NCBI GenBank assembly: GCA_040905385.1
Contig: JBBDRP010000002.1
Span: 745,010-784,156, forward strand
From: Minisyncoccota bacterium
Lineage (GTDB): Bacteria > Patescibacteriota > Minisyncoccia > Phycocordibacterales > SW-6-46-9
Length of the DNA stretch: 39,147 nt
Direction: 5' to 3'
A program made the position numbers and the translations under genes. The notes beneath the pieces are model-generated. The model made no database searches. It saw only the letters and a program-made list of their open reading frames with translations, and was not told where the DNA came from. Below are positions 1 through 39,147 of this stretch, in pieces; the stretch's first letter is position 1; every line of letters begins with the position of its first letter.

Positions 1-164
1 AGAAGAGACTGGATCTGCGCCTGTAGGTCATCGTTAGACTGTCCGTAGGCTGGAGCAATTGCTGCGCCACCTAGCATGAAGAGTCCTGCGGTAAAAGCTA
101 CGAATGCAACTGTAGCTTTTGTTAGAACTGAATCTTTTGTAATAGTCATAAGTTTCTTTTCCAT
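1..164 (-). CDS. N-terminal fragment of a secreted or membrane-anchored hypothetical protein (runs off the window)
   Basis: Minus-strand ATG at 162-164, with a second in-frame ATG at 147-149. Translation is MEKKLMTITKDSVLTKATVAFVAFTAGLFMLGGAAIAPAYGQSNDDLQAQIQSL: charged N-terminus, hydrophobic core and an AxA-like site, i.e. signal-peptide-like. Too short for the ORF track. Confidence 0.4.
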   Translation of the reverse strand, partial: MEKKLMTITKDSVLTKATVAFVAFTAGLFMLGGAAIAPAYGQSNDDLQAQIQSL

Positions 165-690
165 TTCTTTTGGCGTCTTAATAACGCTTCGAAGAAATGG
201 GGTTATCTGTGTCGCCGGAAGTTAATTTGTAATTGATTAATACCGGGCGGACAGATATGAATTAGTAATTAGGATGTTGGGTCGAAATTATTTTGACCAC
301 GTACATAATCGACCAGAGATTCATACGTAGTGCGTGAGCGACCCCTTGGGCACTCCTTCGCCAAGGCTTCGTAGTGCAAGGCACGGTCAGCGAAAGCTTT
401 TCGTGCGATGCATAATCTGCCAGGGCTTGTAGTGCGGTAATTATCCTCCAGAGGATAACCAAAGAAAAAAGTGCATGCACTTTGGTCATCCTCCAAGAGA
501 TATCTACCGAATGTTCTGATCTTCTAGCATCTGTGCGGGCTTGAGCCCTTTGACTAATTGATTAGTCGAGTGACTCTATTCGAACCTTAACGCTGGCTCA
601 CCATGATATCCGCTCTACTCGAGTCGAATATCATGGATCGCTTCAAGTCGACAGTAGAGACAGAACTCTGATTTGCGGTCATTGTTGCCG

Positions 691-786
691 ACTTGGTCCA
701 GGAAAATTACATGTAATTTTCGGACATAAATTCGCGTAACGGTACTTTAAAACTAAAAGTTTTAAAGTTGTCCGACGCTCATTCAA
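691..786 (-). repeat. Structured repeat element, full copy 1 (candidate ncRNA)
   Basis: These 96 nt on the minus strand align end to end with 33115-33213 (+). Shared blocks are TTGAATGAG, TACCGT, GAATTTATGTCCG and CCTGGACCAAGT. The intervening stems differ in sequence but remain complementary. Confidence 0.7.
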
Positions 787-1087
787 CTTTGGACTTTGAG
801 CCCTCAGCTCTTTTCTAGCAAAGAGCTGGATTTCACTCGCTTGGCTCGTTTATATTCTTTTGTGAAGGTGCGGGGTTCTTTAATGTATACAGGCAATCTA
901 CCTATAACACCGTGTATGGTACCACACGCTTGACACTTCAACTGTGGAAAACACCGCTCGCACCCGCCTTTTTGTGAGACACGAATCAAGTTCTCCGCTC
1001 GCTAGCTGCGCGAGGTCTCACAAAAAGGGGTGCTCGCTTTAAGAGACGAAGCCCGAACAAAACAGCAATATTCGCTCTAAGGAGAAT

Positions 1088-1128
1088 GCCTGTGAGAGGT
1101 AGCTGAGAAGAGGTGGGCTCGCTCTAAG
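1088..1128 (+). repeat. 41-bp perfect direct repeat, left copy
   Basis: GCCTGTGAGAGGTAGCTGAGAAGAGGTGGGCTCGCTCTAAG is identical to 2247-2287. Confidence 0.95.
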
Positions 1129-1261
1129 GTAAGTGTCTCACAAAAGGGGTGCTCACTTTAGCGTAGTGACGTATACGGTTGTGAAAGAACAGTAATCACC
1201 GAACAACAGCCTTATTTTAACAATTAATAGTATAAAGATAAAGGCCTTTCCTTACACTTCC

Positions 1262-2023
1262 CTATACCTTTGTATAGGAAGTCCAACGTCTTTTACCGTG
1301 CTTTTCGAGTTGGCCGATCTTTACGAGGGCCTTGAGGTCGCGCTGAATGGTCTTGGTCGAGTAGCCGTTAACGACATCGGTGACGTCATTGACAGTGATC
1401 TCGTCGGTCTTGTTGAAAAGATCAAGAATCTTCTGCCGGCGCTTGTCCTTGGTTGATAGCTGAGCTTTTTTAGCGCTATTACCCGCGGTATTTGCCCCAC
1501 TGCCAGCAGCGGCGTCTCTACCTAATGAAGACGAATCGCGCGGGCTAGCCTTACGCGTTGTTTCGTGCCCTGATTGAAGGGTCGGAAGATCGTTGTTAAA
1601 GTACCCACTGTCCAGGTGTGGGCCCGGAAAGGCACCAAGATCATTAACCTCGGTAATAAAGGTGTCTATTTCCTCGCGCAGAACCCGGAAGTTCATGTAC
1701 GAAATAAGCCCCCCATCGCGAGCGACGGCGAGCTGTGAAAGCAGGCGTTTTAGCAGGCCAGATAGCTCTAGAAGGGTCTCATCCGGCGTGCCATCGGCCA
1801 GCATATGAGCAGACGATACAAGCGACAGTGCCTGGCGGCGAAGTGTGCCGCGGAGGGGTTCTTCAGACGGGAAAACGCGGGTTATGGCGTAAAGTGCACT
1901 GGCCAATCGCTGGGTTTTCCCGGAGACATAGGCAACACGTGTCGTATTGTCGTTTTGAGAAATACCGCTATCTTGCGCATTGCTTTGAGTTTTGTCGTTT
2001 ATACTCTGCATTATGATTTGCAA
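1262..2023 (-). CDS. Putative regulator: N-terminal four-helix-bundle (23S rRNA IVS-protein-like) domain plus C-terminal DeoR-type HTH
   Basis: 253-aa ORF. The N-terminal half contains ITRVFPSEEPLRGTLRRQALSLVSS, resembling the FPxEE...LRRAAxS signature of four-helix-bundle/IVS proteins. The C-terminus ITVNDVTDVVNGYSTKTIQRDLKALVKIGQLEKHGKRRWTSY is a typical DeoR-like winged HTH. Confidence 0.6.
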   Translation of the reverse strand: MQIIMQSINDKTQSNAQDSGISQNDNTTRVAYVSGKTQRLASALYAITRVFPSEEPLRGTLRRQALSLVSSAHMLADGTPDETLLELSGLLKRLLSQLAVARDGGLISYMNFRVLREEIDTFITEVNDLGAFPGPHLDSGYFNNDLPTLQSGHETTRKASPRDSSSLGRDAAAGSGANTAGNSAKKAQLSTKDKRRQKILDLFNKTDEITVNDVTDVVNGYSTKTIQRDLKALVKIGQLEKHGKRRWTSYTKV

Positions 2024-2174
2024 TAAAGTCTTTTATACGACAGGCTGTGTCTCTTTAGATGTCTTTTATTATATAACAGACATGTCTCAATGTAAAGATA
2101 AAGACAAAAAGCGACATATAAAAAGACACACAGCAAGCAACGCTCGCCCACTTCTCTTCTCAGCAAACACGCAT

Positions 2175-2196
2175 CAATTTATCCAGCGATAAATTG
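2175..2196. promoter_or_regulatory. Candidate operator palindrome in the divergent HTH-gene/ftsK intergenic region
   Basis: CAATTTATC-cagc-GATAAATTG is a 9-bp perfect inverted repeat about 150 nt upstream of the HTH gene start. Confidence 0.35.
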
Positions 2197-2246
2197 TGCT
2201 CACTCTCGGCTGATTTTTCTGCCAGGGGCAGAAACCATGCAAATCA

Positions 2247-2287
2247 GCCTGTGAGAGGTAGCTGAGAAGAGGTGGGCTCGCTCTAAG
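2247..2287 (+). repeat. 41-bp perfect direct repeat, right copy
   Basis: Identical to 1088-1128. Followed at 2296-2327 by a diverged copy of the unit found at 1052-1082. Confidence 0.95.
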
Positions 2288-2400
2288 TTCGATAACCCGA
2301 ACGAAACCTGCAGTATTCGCTTTAAGGTAAGCAAGTTTTACCCACAAATCTTCAAGCGCCAATATGATACTATTACCCTAGTCATTAACCAGATTTTTTT

Positions 2401-4932
2401 ATGGCCAAAGGAAAGAAAAAGAAGTCCTCAACCGCAAAGGATAAGCAGCAGTCACTGACCCAGAAGTTACTTCTGGGTAATCAGTCATCGCCAGTCCGAT
2501 CAGCCATTGCCGGCGTACTGATCGCGGCCGCGGCCGGATTCCTGGTTCTGGCGGCCTTTGAATCCGCCGGGTTTGTTGGTGATACAGTCCGCGGTTGGTT
2601 AGCGTATGCCTTTGGGACCGGGTACTGGTTTTTTGTTGCCGGCTTGATATTCTTTGCCTACGCGCTCCTGCGACGAAGTGCCAATCTTCCGACCTTGACG
2701 TGGGTGCATACGGTATCGGCGATCATCTTGTTTTTAACGATATTAGGATTGATTGATGTGGCAGCACCGGAGGCAGGAGGTATCATAGGAGCCTTGATTG
2801 CTGGTGGAGTTATTAGTGCCTTCTCTGTTTATGCCGGGGTGATACTGCTGCAGACAGTGGCGGTGGTAAGTTTGCTAATCTTGGTGGATGAGTACGTAGA
2901 TCTGAGTCGTCAGATAAATCTACCAGCGTTGTCATCTCTCGGTCTATCGAGTACCGCAGAGGATGAAGAGGAACAAGAAACTGAAGGAGAGATGAAAGTA
3001 ACCAACACCGCCCAGACGAATCAATCCACCAGTCAATCTGCTGAATCGCGTGAAGCAACAAAAGACTCCTCATCAGACCCTGAATCATCTGACGATGATC
3101 GGGCAAGCGGGACTACGAAGGGTAAGGATGGAGCCGGCTTTAGCGTGACGAAACCAAAGAAGCATAGTGAAGCTTCTTTTACTGCCTCTCCTCCCCTGAA
3201 AGGTGACTACACACCACCGCCGGTTGAGCTGTTGTCGCGCGATACCGGTGATCCGGAGGTAGGTGATGTAAAGGCGCGAGCTAATTTAATAAAACGAACA
3301 CTGGAAAACTTTAATATTGATGTCGAGATGGACGAAGTATCCATCGGGCCAACCGTCACCCGCTATGCGTTGAAGCCGGCGGAGGGCGTGCGTCTCAACC
3401 GCATCACGAACCTGCAGAACAATCTGGAGATGGCACTGGCGGCTCACCCCGTACGAATCGAGGCTCCGATCCCTGGTAAGTCCTTGGTAGGTGTCGAGGT
3501 TCCAAACACCTCTAAAACAACTGTCGGGCTGGCGGGGCTTATGGGATCAAAGCGGTTTCAGGATGATCCGGCTCCTCTTTTGATGGGTCTCGGACAGGGA
3601 ATTTCAGGTGAGACATACTTTTCGGACCTGAACAAGATGCCGCACCTCTTGATTGGTGGTGCAACCGGCGCGGGAAAGTCGGTGACGGTACATGTGCTGA
3701 TGAACTCGCTTCTCTTCCGCAACGGGCCAGACAATCTGAAGCTGATTATGGTGGACCCAAAGCGGGTTGAGCTAACGCTTTACAATGGTATTCCCCACCT
3801 CTTAACACCCGTTATCACCTCGGCCAAGAAGGCGATTCTGGCCTTGAAGTGGGCGGCTAAGGAGATGGATCGCCGCTACGATATTCTGGAAGAGAACGGC
3901 GCACGCGATATTTCTTCTTATCATAAAACCGTTCTACCAAAGCTAAAAAAACAGCACACCGAGGGTGAGCAGAGTCCAGACACGATGCCGTACATCGTGA
4001 TCGTGATTGATGAGATGGCGGACATGATGAGCGTTTATCCAAAGGAGCTGGAGGCAGTGATTGTCCGCATTGCGCAGATGTCGCGGGCAGTGGGAATTCA
4101 CCTGATTCTGAGCACACAGCGACCAGATGTGAGTATAATTACCGGTATCATTAAGGCCAACATTCCGGCTCGGATTGCGCTGCAGGTATCCTCACAGATT
4201 GATAGTCGTACTATTCTAGACACCAAGGGCGCTGAACAGTTGCTAGGTGCCGGAGATATGCTATTTCAGACCGGGGATATGTCTAAGCCGGTACGTATTC
4301 AGTCTGCCTATATCACCGAGGGTGAGGTAAAGAAGGTGGTAAAACACCTGAAGGATCAGTACGCCGATCAGCTGCAGGATACGGTGAGTCTCAAGGGTGA
4401 CGGCGATGGTGATGGCGGTAAAACCATCTTTGATGTAGCCGCCGAGGCCGAGGAGGATGAGGAGCGAGATGACAAGTACGAAGAGGCGCTGGAGACAGTG
4501 GTAAAGGCTGGTAAGGCCTCGACCTCGCATCTACAGCGAAAACTACGAGTGGGATACAGCCGAGCGGCGCGGATTATTGATGAACTGGAGGAGAACGGCG
4601 TTATCTCGGAAAAGGACGGCACGCGAGCTCGTGATGTCTTGATCACCCATAAAGAACTGGAGGCAGCGCGAGCCGGCGAGACCATCACGCATGAGGACTC
4701 CTCTGACGACTCGTCTCACGGCGAAGGCTCTGGCGAGACAAAGGAGGATTCCCATACCGTAGAACAAGGCGGGGCAGGCGACGACGACCCCACTCCCACG
4801 TCGTCTGGCGACTCTCCTAACGGCGGGGCAGGCTCCGGCGAGGGGGCAAGCGACCCTCAATCATCTGACGATGATCGGGCAAACGAAGAAATTGATGACA
4901 AGTACTTTGAGGCGTTAGAAGAGGATGAGTAA
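2401..4932 (+). CDS. ftsK: DNA translocase FtsK/SpoIIIE
   Basis: N-terminal multi-TM region, acidic linker, and a motor with Walker A GGATGAGKS and IVIDEMADMM. The gamma winged helix reads ASTSHLQRKLRVGYSRAARIIDELEENGVIS. An unusual ~130-aa acidic tail follows the gamma domain. Confidence 0.93.
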   Translation: MAKGKKKKSSTAKDKQQSLTQKLLLGNQSSPVRSAIAGVLIAAAAGFLVLAAFESAGFVGDTVRGWLAYAFGTGYWFFVAGLIFFAYALLRRSANLPTLTWVHTVSAIILFLTILGLIDVAAPEAGGIIGALIAGGVISAFSVYAGVILLQTVAVVSLLILVDEYVDLSRQINLPALSSLGLSSTAEDEEEQETEGEMKVTNTAQTNQSTSQSAESREATKDSSSDPESSDDDRASGTTKGKDGAGFSVTKPKKHSEASFTASPPLKGDYTPPPVELLSRDTGDPEVGDVKARANLIKRTLENFNIDVEMDEVSIGPTVTRYALKPAEGVRLNRITNLQNNLEMALAAHPVRIEAPIPGKSLVGVEVPNTSKTTVGLAGLMGSKRFQDDPAPLLMGLGQGISGETYFSDLNKMPHLLIGGATGAGKSVTVHVLMNSLLFRNGPDNLKLIMVDPKRVELTLYNGIPHLLTPVITSAKKAILALKWAAKEMDRRYDILEENGARDISSYHKTVLPKLKKQHTEGEQSPDTMPYIVIVIDEMADMMSVYPKELEAVIVRIAQMSRAVGIHLILSTQRPDVSIITGIIKANIPARIALQVSSQIDSRTILDTKGAEQLLGAGDMLFQTGDMSKPVRIQSAYITEGEVKKVVKHLKDQYADQLQDTVSLKGDGDGDGGKTIFDVAAEAEEDEERDDKYEEALETVVKAGKASTSHLQRKLRVGYSRAARIIDELEENGVISEKDGTRARDVLITHKELEAARAGETITHEDSSDDSSHGEGSGETKEDSHTVEQGGAGDDDPTPTSSGDSPNGGAGSGEGASDPQSSDDDRANEEIDDKYFEALEEDE

Positions 4933-5412: not shown

Positions 5413-6679
5413 AGACGTAGAGAAGACAATAAAGAAGCTAAAGAGTCGCTTTGGTGACGGCGCGATTATGCGGCTGGGTGAACGCACCGACAAGGATGTC
5501 GAGGTTATTTCGACCGGCTCGATGGGACTTGATCAGGCGCTGGGTGTTGGCGGGCTTCCTCGTGGTCGTGTTGTCGAGATTTTTGGACCAGAAAGCTCGG
5601 GAAAAACGACGCTGGCCCTGCATGTAATTGCCGAGGCACAAAAGGTGGACGGAATTTGCGCCTTTGTAGACGCTGAGCACGCACTTGATCCCGAGTACGC
5701 TAAGAATCTAGGTGTAAAAACAGACGAGCTTTTGATTAGCCAGCCGAACACCGGTGAGGAGGCGCTGGAGATTACCGAAAGCCTCGTACGCAGTGGTGAT
5801 ATTGATGTGGTGGTGATTGACTCGGTAGCGGCGCTAACTCCGAAAGAAGAAATCGAGGGTGATATGGGTAAAAAGCACGTTGGTCACCAGGCGCGACTGA
5901 TGAGCCAGGCGATGCGTAAGCTAACCAGTGGTGTCTCCAAGAGCAAAACAATGGTGATTTTTATTAACCAGATCCGCATGAAGATTGGTGTCATGTTTGG
6001 AAACCCCGAGACAACACCGGGTGGACGAGCGCTAAAGTTCTACTCGTCGGTTCGTTTGGATATTCGACGCCGAGCACGGATTAAAAAGGATGAAGAGGTG
6101 GTCGGGTCCCGCACCAAGGTGAAGGTGGTGAAAAACAAGGTCGCCTCCCCTTTCCGTACGACAGAGTTCGATATTATGTACGGAGAAGGGATCTCTCGAG
6201 AGGGTGAGCTGATCGCACTAGGTGAGAAGTACGGTCTGATCGAGAAGGCAGGGTCATGGTACTCGCTAAGTAAGGAGCTGGATCTTGAGGATGCCGGCGA
6301 GACAATTGGTCAGGGGTATGACTCGGTGCGTACCTGGCTAAAGCAGCACAAGAAGGAGCAGGAGTTGATAAAGACAAAGATTCGCGAAGCTATGGAGGAA
6401 GAGGTAAAGGGCAAAAAAGCGGCTCGTGAAAAGGAGAACGAGCAGGTAGACGACCCTCAATCATCATCTGACGATGATGATCGGGCAAGCGAGAAGGATG
6501 TGGACAAGGGAGAAAAGAAGGAAAAGTCAGACAAGAATAGTAAGGATGAAGGTAAAGACAAGGATGAAAAGAGTGAGAAAAAAGAGAGTGATGGTAAGAA
6601 AAAAAAGAAGAAGGAATCTGGCAAGAATAATAAGAAAGGTATGAAGAAATCAGCTAAGAAGAAAGACAAAAGTAAGTAA
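5366..6679 (+). CDS. recA: Recombinase RecA with a long Lys/Glu/Asp-rich C-terminal tail
   Basis: [11 protein letters not shown], Walker [47 protein letters not shown] and NALKFY-like [15 protein letters not shown]. About 95 extra low-complexity residues at the C-terminus. Confidence 0.95.
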
Positions 6680-7661: not shown

Positions 7662-7919
7662 AACAACCTCCCAGTTGTTTTGATTGAAATTAAATAACTT
7701 ATCCATGGAATAGAGTACACTATATTTTTAATATGTCAAATATATAGCGCCTGTAGTAAAATACACCCCTCTGGTGAGCGGTGCTTTCGACCCAGCCCCT
7801 GCACGCAGGAGACTGGATTTCACTCATCTTATTCGTTCAACTTTTACCCGGTTAAACATTTTTGCAAAGCAAAAATAAAATCTATGATTTTGTTTAACTC
7901 GGGTGAACTTTCAACTAAC

Positions 7920-8117
7920 TTACTGTCTCACGTAAGGCAGCAGGGCCATGAAGCGAGCGCGTTTGATTGCCTTGGCAATCTGGCGCTGGTGACGAGCGGT
8001 AAGGCCGGTATCGCGACGGTGCTGGATGCGGCCGTGTTCAGTAAGAAAACCCTCGAGAATATCAGTATCCTTGTAGTCAATGTGAGTTATGTTATTTTCT
8101 TCGAAGTAATCAGACAT
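7920..8117 (-). CDS. rpsR: 30S ribosomal protein S18
   Basis: [50 protein letters not shown] is the canonical bS18 sequence pattern. Confidence 0.95.
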
Positions 8118-8181
8118 GGGTTAGGAAATTAGGTTGCTAGGTTATTAGGAGTCTAGGAAGTTAGGTCTCTAGGCTTCTAGG
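8118..8181 (-). repeat. Eight exact-period octamers (mRNA sense CCUAR-NNN) abutting the rpsR AUG
   Basis: Plus strand: gggttagg aaattagg ttgctagg ttattagg agtctagg aagttagg tctctagg cttctagg. Confidence 0.9.
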
Positions 8182-8482
8182 TATTTGATAATAAAAGTTT
8201 TAGATAGACACGAGTACTAGCTTAGCAGATTTCCATTAATCACTCAATATAATCTATGCTAGTTTTAACTTCAGCTCTGCGCGAAAGTTCGCGGAATCTT
8301 TGAGCAACGTTGTGCACCGAAGCTTCTAGGCGTAGATTTAGATACATTTCGCGAACGAAGACTTCTAGCAGCTGGATTTGCGTAAAATTCGCAGAATCTT
8401 TGAGTAACGACATGAGCGGTAAAGAGATAATACCGCGAGTAAGGCACGGAGAAGATTCTAAAGAAATTTGCCAAATACAGTG

Positions 8483-37937: not shown

Positions 37938-39147
<1,210 letters not shown>

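What the first reader, a model, noticed from the sequence alone, without database searches (positions are those of the whole stretch)
165..1261. About 1.1 kb with no credible ORF, saturated with perfect hairpins and palindromes
This genome otherwise packs genes 1-50 nt apart, yet this stretch has only short, overlapping, start-poor ORFs. Instead it contains many strong stems:
- 441-458: TTATCCTC-ca-GAGGATAA.
- 453-491: a 12-bp stem around the palindrome GTGCATGCAC. The stem has a G.U pair only when read on the minus strand.
- 552-567: GACTAAT-tg-ATTAGTC.
- 601-638: a 9-bp stem, CCATGATAT/ATATCATGG.
- 702-721 and 745-767: the two hairpins of the structured repeat.
- 805-828: CAGCTCTTT/AAAGAGCTG.
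- 961-1032: a long imperfect stem, ...CCTTTTTGTGAGAC/GTCTCACAAAAAGG...

Inference: this is either one or more large structured RNAs on the minus strand, downstream of the repeat element, or a graveyard of non-autonomous hairpin-ended mobile elements.
Basis: seen in the sequence. Interest (0 to 1): 0.6.

Follow-up and report, generated by a model that had tools for sequence, protein, structure and literature searches.

The report
Conserved leader plus stacked hairpin repeats
This gene-free kilobase in a tiny Paceibacterota genome is a conserved, folded upstream leader of a cell-wall protein gene followed by a pile-up of small hairpin repeats that also litter the rest of the genome, not one large RNA and not a dead gene.

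Summary
Window 165-1261 (true limits 150-1261) has 15 perfect stems of 7 bp or more, against 3.5 +/- 2.4 in genome windows of equal size. It is the fifth largest ORF-free gap of this 785-kb genome, and every listed hairpin is present.

The stretch is composite:
- 150-510 is a leader upstream of a 689-aa peptidoglycan-binding-type protein gene. It is conserved in five related sequences at a fixed distance from the start codon. Its 27-bp hairpin has five G.U pairs on the minus strand only.
- 502-1160 is a stack of copies and fragments of four repeat families: E (26 hits in the genome), F (4), A (15) and B (29). All lie on one strand.

A and B keep their folds through many compensatory changes. 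A was found in one genus only. B is patchy (9 of 41 genomes, G000 included; 47 copies in one, none found in that one's genus-mate) and has 93-97% identical copies in a relative.

The closest relative found is 97% identical across the hairpin but cannot be aligned across 547-1261. No Rfam family, tRNA, Pfam match for the ORFs tested or DnaA-box cluster was found. The agent that spreads the repeats is unknown. No RNA data exist.

The parts
1..149 (-). 5' end of the left-hand gene. It encodes a 689-aa secreted protein, conserved in Paceibacterota, of peptidoglycan-binding/hydrolase-like type.
   Evidence: 693 homologues, many carrying PF01471, some named 'peptidoglycan hydrolase-like protein with peptidoglycan-binding domain'. 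The start is placed at the second ATG (147-149) from the relatives.
150..510 (-). Conserved structured upstream leader of the 689-aa gene.
   Evidence: It aligns in 6 sequences. The hairpin lies 261-277 nt from the start codon in the window, L057 and L058. The minus-strand consensus fold has 77 pairs. z = -6.4. No other copy in the genome (segments C and D).
161..200 (-). Start-proximal hairpin CCAUUUCUU/AAGAAAUGG with an inner GCGU/ACGC stem. It ends 11 nt before the AUG.
   Evidence: (I12). The pairs are kept in 5 of 5 sequences, with changes on both sides in G005.
204..257 (-). Leader hairpin TATCTGT.../...ACAGATA with a ~40-nt loop.
   Evidence: The stem extension differs but still pairs in G005 (CTTT/AAAG against CGCC/GGCG).
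435..509 (-). Invariant long hairpin with 27 predicted pairs. It holds three GAGGAU(A/G)A / UUAUCCUC segments that allow two exclusive pairings: the 441-458 hairpin or the 451-493 stem.
   Evidence: (I1, I20, I21). Five G.U pairs occur on the minus strand only. It is 97% identical to L058 over 432-546, although the neighbouring protein is 72% identical. Note that 22 nt of it were the search pattern.
502..569 (+). Copy of repeat family E (~68 nt). It includes the 552-567 palindrome.
   Evidence: 26 hits in the genome; 14 of 26 begin within about 10 nt of (a few up to 24 nt inside) the end of a same-strand gene as I called it. E is also present at this position in L058 and L056.
575..662 (+). 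Copy of repeat family F: a hairpin (601-636) between GCTCAC and GCTCGCTTCAAG-like flanks.
   Evidence: 4 copies. The stem here is entirely different from the other three copies but still pairs. Partial copies sit at the same place in L058 and L056.
669..810 (-). Copy of repeat family A (core 686-788). It has two hairpins plus a closing UGAAU/AUUUA helix. The strand is that of the better fold.
   Evidence: 106.3 bits; 97.3% of cells paired, 21 of 37 pairs with changes on both sides.
805..828 (.). Unique 9-bp hairpin CAGCTCTTT/AAAGAGCTG at the edge of the A copy.
   Evidence: No other copy (segment G). No T-run on either strand.
811..952 (.). Unassigned unique spacer.
   Evidence: No repeat hit. 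z-scores not significant. No match in relatives.
953..1043 (-). Internally deleted copy of repeat family B. It keeps both flanks, the closing stem P1 (967-980 / 1015-1028) and the junction motifs.
   Evidence: 43.3 bits, E 1.5e-10, alignment shown; nhmmer hit at window 938-1045.
1052..1160 (-). Three solo ends of family B, each a flank (C)TTAGAGCGAxx / CTAAAGTGAGC plus one arm of P1: 1052-1083, 1088-1130, 1131-1160.
   Evidence: 1088-1128 is 100% identical to 2247-2287. nhmmer hits fall at 1088-1130 and 1136-1160. 1052-1083 rests on weaker evidence: blastn E 0.003 and a flank motif with one mismatch.
1161..1261 (-). Unique 3' flank of the DeoR-type HTH gene.
   Evidence: No repeat hit. Read.
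1262..2023 (-). Conserved 253-aa protein with a C-terminal DeoR-type HTH. It is the right-hand neighbour.
   Evidence: PF08220. A match in 36 of 41 genomes, G000 included.
2139..2330 (-). Full copy of family B (2139-2287) plus one more solo end (2296-2328), between the HTH promoter and ftsK. It lies outside the finding and serves as the reference copy.
   Evidence: 109.7 bits. L058 has 94 unrelated nt in place of window 2146-2361.

Best explanation
The stretch is two things joined together.

(1) Window 150-510 is the upstream leader of the left-hand gene, a 689-aa secreted peptidoglycan-binding-type protein. It is read on the minus strand. It carries four hairpins, including an invariant 27-bp one that can pair in two exclusive ways, and one that ends 11 nt before the start codon. 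I infer that it acts in cis on expression of that gene. That it is conserved and structured is shown. What it does is inferred.

(2) Window 502-1160 is a stack of small structured repeats from four families that are scattered through the intergenic spacers of this genome:
- One E, one F and one A copy.
- One internally deleted B copy.
- Three solo B ends.

I read these as non-autonomous elements that multiply within genomes, settle in gene-free DNA (often right after stop codons) and stay foldable. This spacer is a tolerated landing place, so it has grown from under 100 nt to over 800 nt. Their multiplication and turnover are shown by copy numbers, patchy distribution and differences between relatives. 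The copying mechanism and enzyme are not known. Single-strand hairpin handling by an HUH/Y1 enzyme is my favoured guess only.

The remaining ~240 nt (811-952, 1161-1261) are unique spacer.
For: Leader:
- Synteny (689-aa gene, spacer, HTH gene, ftsK) holds in G002, G003, G005 and in three of the four metagenome contigs; the fourth, L055, is too short to show the genes on both sides.
- The long hairpin lies 261-277 nt from the start codon in the window, L057 and L058.
- Six sequences align over 150-510.
- On the minus strand the hairpin has 27 pairs, five of them G.U. These would be C.A mismatches on the plus strand.
- The hairpin is 97% identical to L058, where the adjacent protein is 72% identical and the leader as a whole is 70% identical.

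Repeats:
- Iterative nhmmer finds 17 hits for A, 25 for B, 26 for E and 4 for F in the genome.
- The covariance models give 29 B and 15 A copies and place copies at window 953-1043 and 686-788.
- Structure is maintained. B has 86.8% of cells paired (44-52% when partners are slid), and 40 of 45 pairs change on both sides. A has 97.3% paired, 21 of 37. B copies from eight other genomes have 95% paired, 41 of 45, on a model-fitted alignment.

Turnover:
- The hairpin-to-HTH distance is 88, 483, 643, 677 and 821 nt in five genomes.
- L058 gives no alignment at all to 547-1261.
- The modules present differ: E+F in L058; E, partial F, A, partial E and A in L056; one B in G005; none in L055.

Distribution:
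- B is in 9 of 41 genomes. G005 has 47, its genus-mate G004 has 0, and G002 and G003 of the same family have 0.
- A is in 2 of 41, both of one genus.

Recent spread:
- G005 has B copies 93-97% identical over ~137 nt.
- The window's full B copy is 85% identical to a copy at 268 kb. By eye in the alignment it is much less like the syntenic copy in G005.
- A 41-nt piece is duplicated exactly 1.2 kb apart.

Short-read contigs of run X1 break at 436-461, 1099-1117 and 2258-2276. Summed depth rises over the A and B cores. These are contigs only, possibly from the source sample.
Against: - No RNA data exist, so neither the leader nor any repeat is shown to be transcribed.
- No transposase can be tied to the repeats. 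No reverse transcriptase, IS110-type or TnpB-type gene was found, and there is only one tyrosine recombinase.
- Y1-type genes occur in 7 of the 9 B-positive genomes against 27 of 41 overall, which is no enrichment.
- The two Y1 genes of this genome are flanked by their own palindromes, which are unlike A, B, E and F.
- Copies in one genome differ strongly yet keep pairing. Plain decaying selfish copies would not do this, so it argues for a function of the fold itself.
- No target-site duplication is visible at seven G005 B-copy ends examined. The classical cut-and-paste MITE model therefore does not fit.
- G003 has a 1029-nt spacer at the same place that is almost wholly unique sequence. A long spacer here does not need repeats.
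- All elements in this spacer lie in one orientation, opposite to their usual orientation relative to neighbouring genes. I cannot explain this.
Confidence: 0.75

Rival explanations
1. The repeats are not selfish mobile DNA. They are functional RNA or single-strand DNA modules that the cell uses, for example 3'-end stabilisers, processing sites, protein-binding sites or antisense RNAs. On this reading the spacer is a long regulatory untranslated region joining the HTH gene to the 689-aa gene on the minus strand.
For: - Folds are kept by many compensatory changes between copies of one genome, with conserved unpaired motifs.
- Position is not random. 12 of 25 B hits and 14 of 26 E hits start within about 17 nt of (a few slightly inside) the stop codon of a same-strand gene.
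- In three loci an E copy lies between a stop codon and an intrinsic terminator.
- B folds better on one strand in 18 of 18 copies, by 6.4 kcal/mol on average, and A in 11 of 13.
- In this spacer that better strand is the strand of both flanking genes.
Against: - A is confined to one genus, and B is missing from close kin of genomes that hold dozens of copies. A needed function would be expected to be shared more widely.
- Near-identical copies in G005 point to recent multiplication.
- At most other loci the better-folding strand of B is antisense to the neighbouring genes.
- The module content of this very spacer differs between relatives.
Confidence: 0.25
2. The whole 1.1 kb is one large structured non-coding RNA gene on the minus strand, of the ROOL, GOLLD, OLE or HEARO kind or a new one.
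For: - Strong excess of structure.
- Minus-strand G.U pairs in the 435-509 hairpin.
- A long gene-free spacer at this position is seen in G002, G003, G005 and three metagenome contigs.
Against: - No Rfam match at gathering score, or at E<=10, on either strand, nor in the relatives' spacers.
- Spacer length varies from about 350 to 1112 nt. Only the first ~360 nt are alignable.
- About 490 nt of it are copies of units found 4-29 times elsewhere in the genome.
Confidence: 0.04
3. The stretch is a decayed protein-coding gene, or a set of gene fragments.
For: Two overlapping 75-aa ORFs (262-489 and 269-496, minus strand) and a 61-aa ORF (804-989) exist.
Against: - No Pfam match for those ORFs.
- Relatives have no gene at this place either. 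In L055 the HTH gene ends 88 nt from the hairpin.
- 262-496 overlaps the conserved hairpins. Its alignment to relatives has indels that are not multiples of three.
- Most of the rest is accounted for by repeats.
- No translated search of the whole stretch against a large protein database was run.
Confidence: 0.03
4. The conserved palindrome 435-509 is a double-stranded DNA operator for a transcription factor, for example the neighbouring DeoR-type protein, rather than an RNA hairpin.
For: - Three 8-mers GAGGAT(A/G)A lie in alternating orientation.
- An HTH regulator gene is the conserved neighbour.
Against: - The distance between the second and third 8-mer differs. The loop is 15 nt in five sequences and about 2-4 nt in G005. 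A hairpin tolerates this better than a dimer site does.
- All mismatches in the stem are of the kind that pair as G.U on the minus strand.
Confidence: 0.15

Closest known systems
Clusters of REP elements (BIMEs) and REPINs with RAYT transposases in Proteobacteria (recalled from general knowledge, not from a call)
   Same: - Short palindromic, foldable repeats confined to intergenic DNA, often just after stop codons.
- They stack into mosaics, with strand bias and pairing kept by compensating changes.
- RAYT-like Y1 genes are present in the genome, one of them 2.3 kb from the stretch.
   Different: - Units are longer (68-150 nt). B is a three-way junction, not a simple hairpin.
- The Y1 genes here are flanked by other palindromes, not by A, B, E or F.
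- There is no co-occurrence of B with Y1 genes.
- The best NCBIfam score for RAYT is below its cut-off, 36 against 80 bits.
MITEs such as Correia elements, ERIC, RUP and BOX (recalled)
   Same: - Roughly 100-150-nt non-coding repeats with paired ends and dozens of copies.
- Patchy among relatives, located between genes, nested or stacked.
   Different: - No target-site duplication was seen.
- The paired ends differ in sequence from copy to copy.
- No parent insertion sequence was found.
IS200/IS605-type ends and their non-autonomous derivatives (PATEs) (recalled)
   Same: - No duplication at the ends, sharp ends, hairpins near the ends and one preferred strand.
- Y1/HUH genes are present.
   Different: - No conserved short target word is evident beside the ends.
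- The better-folding strand of B is mostly the leading-strand template. This is opposite to what I recall for IS608.
- No TnpB gene.
Structured 5' leaders and riboswitch-like switches with alternative pairings
   Same: The conserved leader has mutually exclusive pairings of three repeated 8-mers and a hairpin next to the start codon.
   Different: No Rfam family matches. No ligand, terminator or sequestered ribosome-binding site can be named. This genome shows no Shine-Dalgarno enrichment before the crudely called (longest-ORF) gene starts.

Membership tests
Known large or housekeeping ncRNAs (ROOL, GOLLD, OLE, HEARO, raiA, tmRNA, RNase P) in Rfam 15 | Match to the family covariance model at or near its gathering score | tested here: not met
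   - nothing in 1-2500 apart from chance hairpin matches (mir-1255 at 22 bits against a cut-off of 63).
- no tmRNA or tRNA.
- nothing in the relatives' spacers.
MITE (cut-and-paste type) | Terminal inverted repeats of shared sequence | tested here: inconclusive
   The ends of B pair as a 14-20-bp stem, but the stem sequence differs between copies.
MITE (cut-and-paste type) | Target-site duplication flanking each copy | tested here: not met
   Seven G005 copies with flanks were read by eye and none showed one; an eighth row lacks its 5' end. The conserved GYTCRC words at both ends are part of the aligned unit.
MITE (cut-and-paste type) | A related autonomous element with a transposase | tested here: not met
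   No RVT_1, IS110 DEDD or TnpB-type hit and one Phage_integrase hit in the genome. DDE families were not searched.
REP/REPIN with RAYT | The RAYT gene is flanked by the same repeats that are dispersed in the genome | tested here: not met
   The Y1 genes at 742.2 kb and 246.1 kb are flanked by their own palindromes, with 4 and 7 sites genome-wide. These are unlike A, B, E and F.
REP/REPIN with RAYT | Presence of the repeat goes with presence of the RAYT across genomes | tested here: not met
   B is in 9 of 41 genomes. Y1 hits are in 27 of 41, and 7 of the 9 B-positive genomes have one.
IS200/IS605-derived non-autonomous element | No duplication, hairpins near the ends, strand-specific | tested here: met
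   These features are not exclusive to this family.
IS200/IS605-derived non-autonomous element | A conserved 4-5-nt target word directly 5' of the left end | tested here: inconclusive
   TAG, AGG or AGGG often precedes the CGYTCRC end. This may simply be the stop codon.
Replication origin | Cluster of DnaA boxes near the GC-skew minimum or dnaA | tested here: not met
   - 1 of the window's 9 one-mismatch boxes lies in the stretch, against 9.4 expected for the whole window.
- The skew minimum is near 20 kb.
- dnaA is at 67.7 kb.
Cis-regulatory 5' leader | Conserved position relative to the regulated gene, with conserved pairing | tested here: met
Cis-regulatory 5' leader | Transcribed with the gene and alters its expression | not testable with these tools
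   No RNA run holds this DNA.

The most novel reading that the evidence does not exclude
Families B and F are a so far undescribed kind of strand-specific, duplication-free mobile element of Paceibacterota.
- They share GYTCRC...GYTCRCTTTAAG-type flanks around a hairpin or a three-way junction.
- They are copied from one end. Every clearly truncated copy found keeps the same end.
- They land next to stop codons.
- They are kept foldable because the fold itself is the substrate of an unidentified host or HUH-type enzyme.
Alternatively, they are a multi-copy antisense RNA with a cellular role.
Probability: 0.2. Interest if true: 0.7.

Novelty: new member of a known kind. Interest (0 to 1): 0.4.

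Why it matters
- Genomes of the candidate phyla radiation are usually described as streamlined and poor in mobile DNA (my own recollection). Here a 785-kb genome carries about 70 copies of four structured repeat families. One family bursts to 47 copies in a relative while none were found in that relative's genus-mate.
- For annotation, such stretches should be masked as repeats before hunting for new RNAs. Otherwise a pile-up like this one looks like a giant structured RNA.
- The conserved leader is a small, testable candidate regulator of a cell-wall protein that is conserved across Paceibacterota.
- The maintained folds, the strand preference and the stop-codon position of family B are not explained by any transposase found. 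That is the one open question worth following.

Tried and rejected
- Rfam at gathering score and at E<=10 found nothing for the stretch or for the relatives' spacers. ARAGORN found nothing.
- Pfam on the three longest ORFs gave nothing.
- The search for related loci with the HTH protein in genome contigs found no relative. I used the genome search instead.
- Origin of replication is rejected.
- A Shine-Dalgarno or anti-Shine-Dalgarno reading of the purine-rich arm of B and of the GAGGATAA words is dropped. The 16S 3' tail lacks CCUCC at the usual place, and no SD-like 5-mer is enriched before gene starts.
- RAYT as mobiliser of A and B is not supported by flanks or by co-occurrence.
- Reverse transcriptase, IS110 and TnpB genes were not found.
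- The promoter/terminator scan found no promoter for the 689-aa gene and no terminator inside the stretch. The only strong promoter is that of the HTH gene at 2096-2068.
- A clean empty site for B could not be defined. L058 has 94 unrelated nt where the window has 216.
- No RNA holder was listed for this DNA.
- Read laying used contigs only, possibly from the source sample. It showed contig breaks at repeats and one low-support joint, 30 to 432, which I do not interpret.
- Paper searches found nothing on such repeats. Terms used: Parcubacteria + miniature inverted-repeat; candidate phyla radiation + noncoding RNA + intergenic + structured; REP-associated tyrosine transposase + Patescibacteria; Parcubacteria + repetitive extragenic palindromic. 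I saw search listings only and read no paper. Supplements are closed.
- Gene positions used come from my own crude longest-ORF calls (796 ORFs), not from an annotation.
Full report
**Setting.** The window is G000:C2:745010-784156 of a 785-kb, two-contig genome, 95.7% complete. A syntenic relative is titled 'Parcubacteria group bacterium'. Homologues of the left-hand protein are named Candidatus Paceibacterota. The only runs holding the DNA are labelled sediment metagenome and are DNA.

**Check of the observation.**
- Every hairpin in the finding is present. The small corrections are given in the observation check.
- The stretch has 15 perfect stems of at least 7 bp, against 3.47 +/- 2.42 in equal windows of the genome. 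Only 0.18% of windows reach that number.
- Dinucleotide-shuffle z-scores are -6.0/-6.4 for 150-520 and -4.3/-6.7 for 500-830 (plus/minus strand). They are about -2.8 for 938-1165. They are not significant for 811-940 or for two coding controls.
- It is the fifth largest gap free of ORFs of 90 aa or more. Of the four larger gaps, three hold 16S rRNA or tRNA clusters and one is the contig start.
- No Rfam family, tRNA or tmRNA lies in it. Its three longest ORFs have no Pfam match.

**Neighbours and synteny.**
- Left neighbour: a gene on the minus strand for a 689-aa secreted protein. It has 693 homologues, many with a peptidoglycan-binding domain.
- Right neighbour: a 253-aa protein with a DeoR-type helix-turn-helix, also on the minus strand. 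It gives a match in 36 of 41 genomes, G000 included. Then comes ftsK on the plus strand.
- The same order, with a gene-free spacer, is seen in G003 (1029 nt), G005 (about 900 nt) and G002 (586 nt).
- A 22-nt pattern from the long palindrome retrieved G005 again and four metagenome contigs. The contigs long enough to show the neighbours have the same gene order.

**The conserved part, 150-510.**
- In the window, L057 and L058 the palindrome lies 261-277 nt from the start codon of the 689-aa gene. Six sequences align across this part.
- Folded on the minus strand, the consensus has 77 pairs. These include a 27-bp hairpin (435-509), a hairpin at 204-257, a further stem pair at about 280-345, and a hairpin (161-200) that ends 11 nt before the AUG.
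- The long hairpin has five G.U pairs on the minus strand, which would be C.A mismatches on the plus strand.
- The start-proximal hairpin keeps pairing in G005 through changes on both sides.
- The hairpin core is 97% identical to L058 over 432-546. The neighbouring protein is 72% identical, and the leader as a whole is 70% identical. Part of the invariance is by construction, because 22 nt were the search pattern. The invariant block extends beyond that pattern on both sides.
- The segment GAGGATAA (451-458) can pair either with 441-448 or with 486-493. I read this as a possible switch. That is inference only.
- These segments have no other copy in the genome.

**The variable part, 502-1160.** Iterative nhmmer splits it into units that recur elsewhere in the genome.
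- E (502-569): 26 hits.
- F (575-662): 4 hits.
- A (669-810): 17 hits.
- B: 25 hits. The reference copy lies just outside the finding at 2139-2287.
- Covariance models built from 18 B and 13 A copies find 29 and 15 copies in the genome.
- In the window, the models score 953-1043 as an internally deleted B copy (43 bits) and 686-788 as an A copy (106 bits).
- Three further pieces are solo ends of B: one flank plus one arm of the closing stem. They are 1052-1083, 1088-1130 and 1131-1160. The second is identical over 41 nt to the end of the reference copy.
  - 552-567 lies in E.
  - 601-636 is the F hairpin.
  - 702-721 and 744-768 are the two A hairpins.
  - 967-1028 is the closing stem of the shortened B copy.
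  - 441-493 belongs to the leader.
  - 805-828 remains unique.
- Together the leader and the repeats cover about 850 of 1112 nt.

**Nature of the repeats.**
- B is a three-way junction of about 140 nt: a 14-20-bp closing stem, a hairpin with a CGCUGG loop, and a long hairpin with a conserved AUUUGCAUGGU bulge (given on the better-folding strand). GYGARC words stand at both ends.
- In B, 86.8% of cells pair, against 44-52% when partners are slid. 40 of 45 pairs change on both sides, and 0 of 500 shuffles reach the observed values.
- Fourteen copies from eight other genomes give 95% paired and 41 of 45, on an alignment fitted to the model.
- A gives 97.3% paired and 21 of 37.
- The reverse complement of the orientation found in the window's plus strand folds better in 18 of 18 B copies (mean 6.4 kcal/mol) and in 11 of 13 A copies.
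- In the B alignment there are 77 G.U cells against 34 A.C cells. The structure was chosen on that strand, which biases this count.
- E is weakly structured and shows no strand preference. F resembles a small B, with similar flanks around a simple hairpin.

**Position of the repeats.** With my own crude gene calls, 12 of 25 B hits and 14 of 26 E hits begin within about 17 nt of (a few slightly inside) the end of a same-strand gene. In G005, TAG directly precedes, or lies within five nt of, several B ends. A is intergenic, with mixed orientation.

**Evidence that the variable part turns over.**
- The distance from the palindrome to the HTH stop codon is 88 nt (L055), 483 (L058), 643 (L056), 677 (G005) and 821 (window).
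- L058, the closest relative found, has no alignable sequence for 547-1261.
- Module content differs between relatives:
  - L058 has E and F.
  - L056 has E, part of F, A, part of E and a second A.
  - G005 has one B.
  - L055 has none.
- Between the HTH gene and ftsK, the window has 216 nt (B plus a solo end) where L058 has 94 unrelated nt.
- B occurs in 9 of 41 genomes of the order: 28-29 copies in G000, 16 in G001, 47 in G005 and 1-9 in six others. None were found in G002, G003 or G004, although G004 shares a genus with G005. Completeness of those three is 94, 96 and 85%.
- A occurs only in G000 and G001.
- G005 holds B copies 93-97% identical to each other.
- Aligning eight G005 copies with flanks shows a sharp end at CGTTCRC and another near AAGGAAGTGC, with no duplicated flank in the seven that show both ends.

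**What could move them.**
- The genome has no hit for reverse transcriptase, IS110-type or TnpB-type proteins, and one tyrosine recombinase near the skew maximum.
- It has two Y1/HUH genes. The one 2.3 kb from the stretch scores best against the RAYT model, but below its cut-off.
- Both are flanked by their own palindromes, with 4 and 7 sites in the genome. These are unrelated to A, B, E and F. Orthologues in L058, G005 and G003 are likewise flanked by inverted repeats of other sequence.
- Y1 genes occur in 27 of 41 genomes and in 7 of the 9 that carry B, so there is no association.
- The mobiliser is therefore unknown. I favour single-strand hairpin chemistry only because of the strand preference, the sharp ends and the lack of duplications.

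**Points against my reading, or left open.**
- No RNA evidence exists.
- Pairing is maintained between diverged copies in one genome. This suggests the fold is selected, whether for mobility or for a cellular use. I give the 'functional module' rival 0.25.
- G003's spacer is long yet almost all unique.
- All elements in this spacer face one way, opposite to their usual orientation relative to flanking genes. This puts their better-folding strand on the transcribed strand of both neighbours.
- Truncated B copies all keep the same end. This hints at copying from that end but could also reflect deletions.

**Assembly.** Short-read contigs of run X1 tile the stretch without differences (1-461, 436-1117, 1099-2276, 2258-2600). 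They break at the palindrome and at the 41-nt duplicate. X1 may be the source sample, so this is not independent support. The conserved gene order in relatives supports the arrangement.

**Verdict.** The stretch is not one large RNA, not a dead gene and not an origin. It is a conserved structured leader followed by a lineage-specific pile-up of structured repeats.

Noticed in passing
G000:C2:742169-742961 (about 2.3 kb left of the window) and C2:246055-246972; also L058, L050, L051: Two Y1/HUH (RAYT-like) genes are each flanked on both sides by their own perfect palindromes. Orthologues in three relatives are flanked by inverted repeats of different sequence. This is a small RAYT/REP-like arrangement in a reduced genome.
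   Followed up: partly
window 37939-39147: The 23S rRNA match covers 910 model positions in 1209 nt. About 300 extra nt therefore lie inside the 3' third of the gene, possibly an intervening sequence or intron.
   Followed up: no
L015:1780-1880 (16S rRNA 3' end) and genome-wide gene starts: The 16S 3' tail reads GGAAUGUAUCCUAAUCUGUCCUC, where CCUCC-containing GGAUCACCUCCUUA is usual. No Shine-Dalgarno-like 5-mer is enriched in the 20 nt before 538 crude gene starts. AT-rich words dominate instead.
   Followed up: partly
window 2044-2134: A long imperfect inverted repeat (arms 2046-2070 and 2106-2130) wraps the only strong promoter-like site, TTTACA-17-TATAAT at 2096-2068 on the minus strand. 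That is the promoter of the HTH gene. Parts are conserved in L056 and G005, so it may be an autoregulatory operator.
   Followed up: no
G000:C2, e.g. 334395-334900, 270590-271060, 47400-47990: Many intergenic spacers are built from the same parts in the same order: stop codon, E copy, intrinsic terminator, second E copy, further hairpins, then the next promoter.
   Followed up: partly
window 7707-8482: This is another ORF-free gap of 776 nt. It holds a 26-nt direct repeat 100 nt apart (8284-8309 and 8384-8409).
   Followed up: no
window 3076-3109, 4852-4885, 6458-6491: A 34-nt repeat encoding an acidic serine/aspartate-rich motif occurs twice in ftsK and once in a gene downstream.
   Followed up: no
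G000:C2:708976-709118: One full B copy lies about 200 nt downstream of the 16S rRNA gene, in the same relation it has to protein genes.
   Followed up: no
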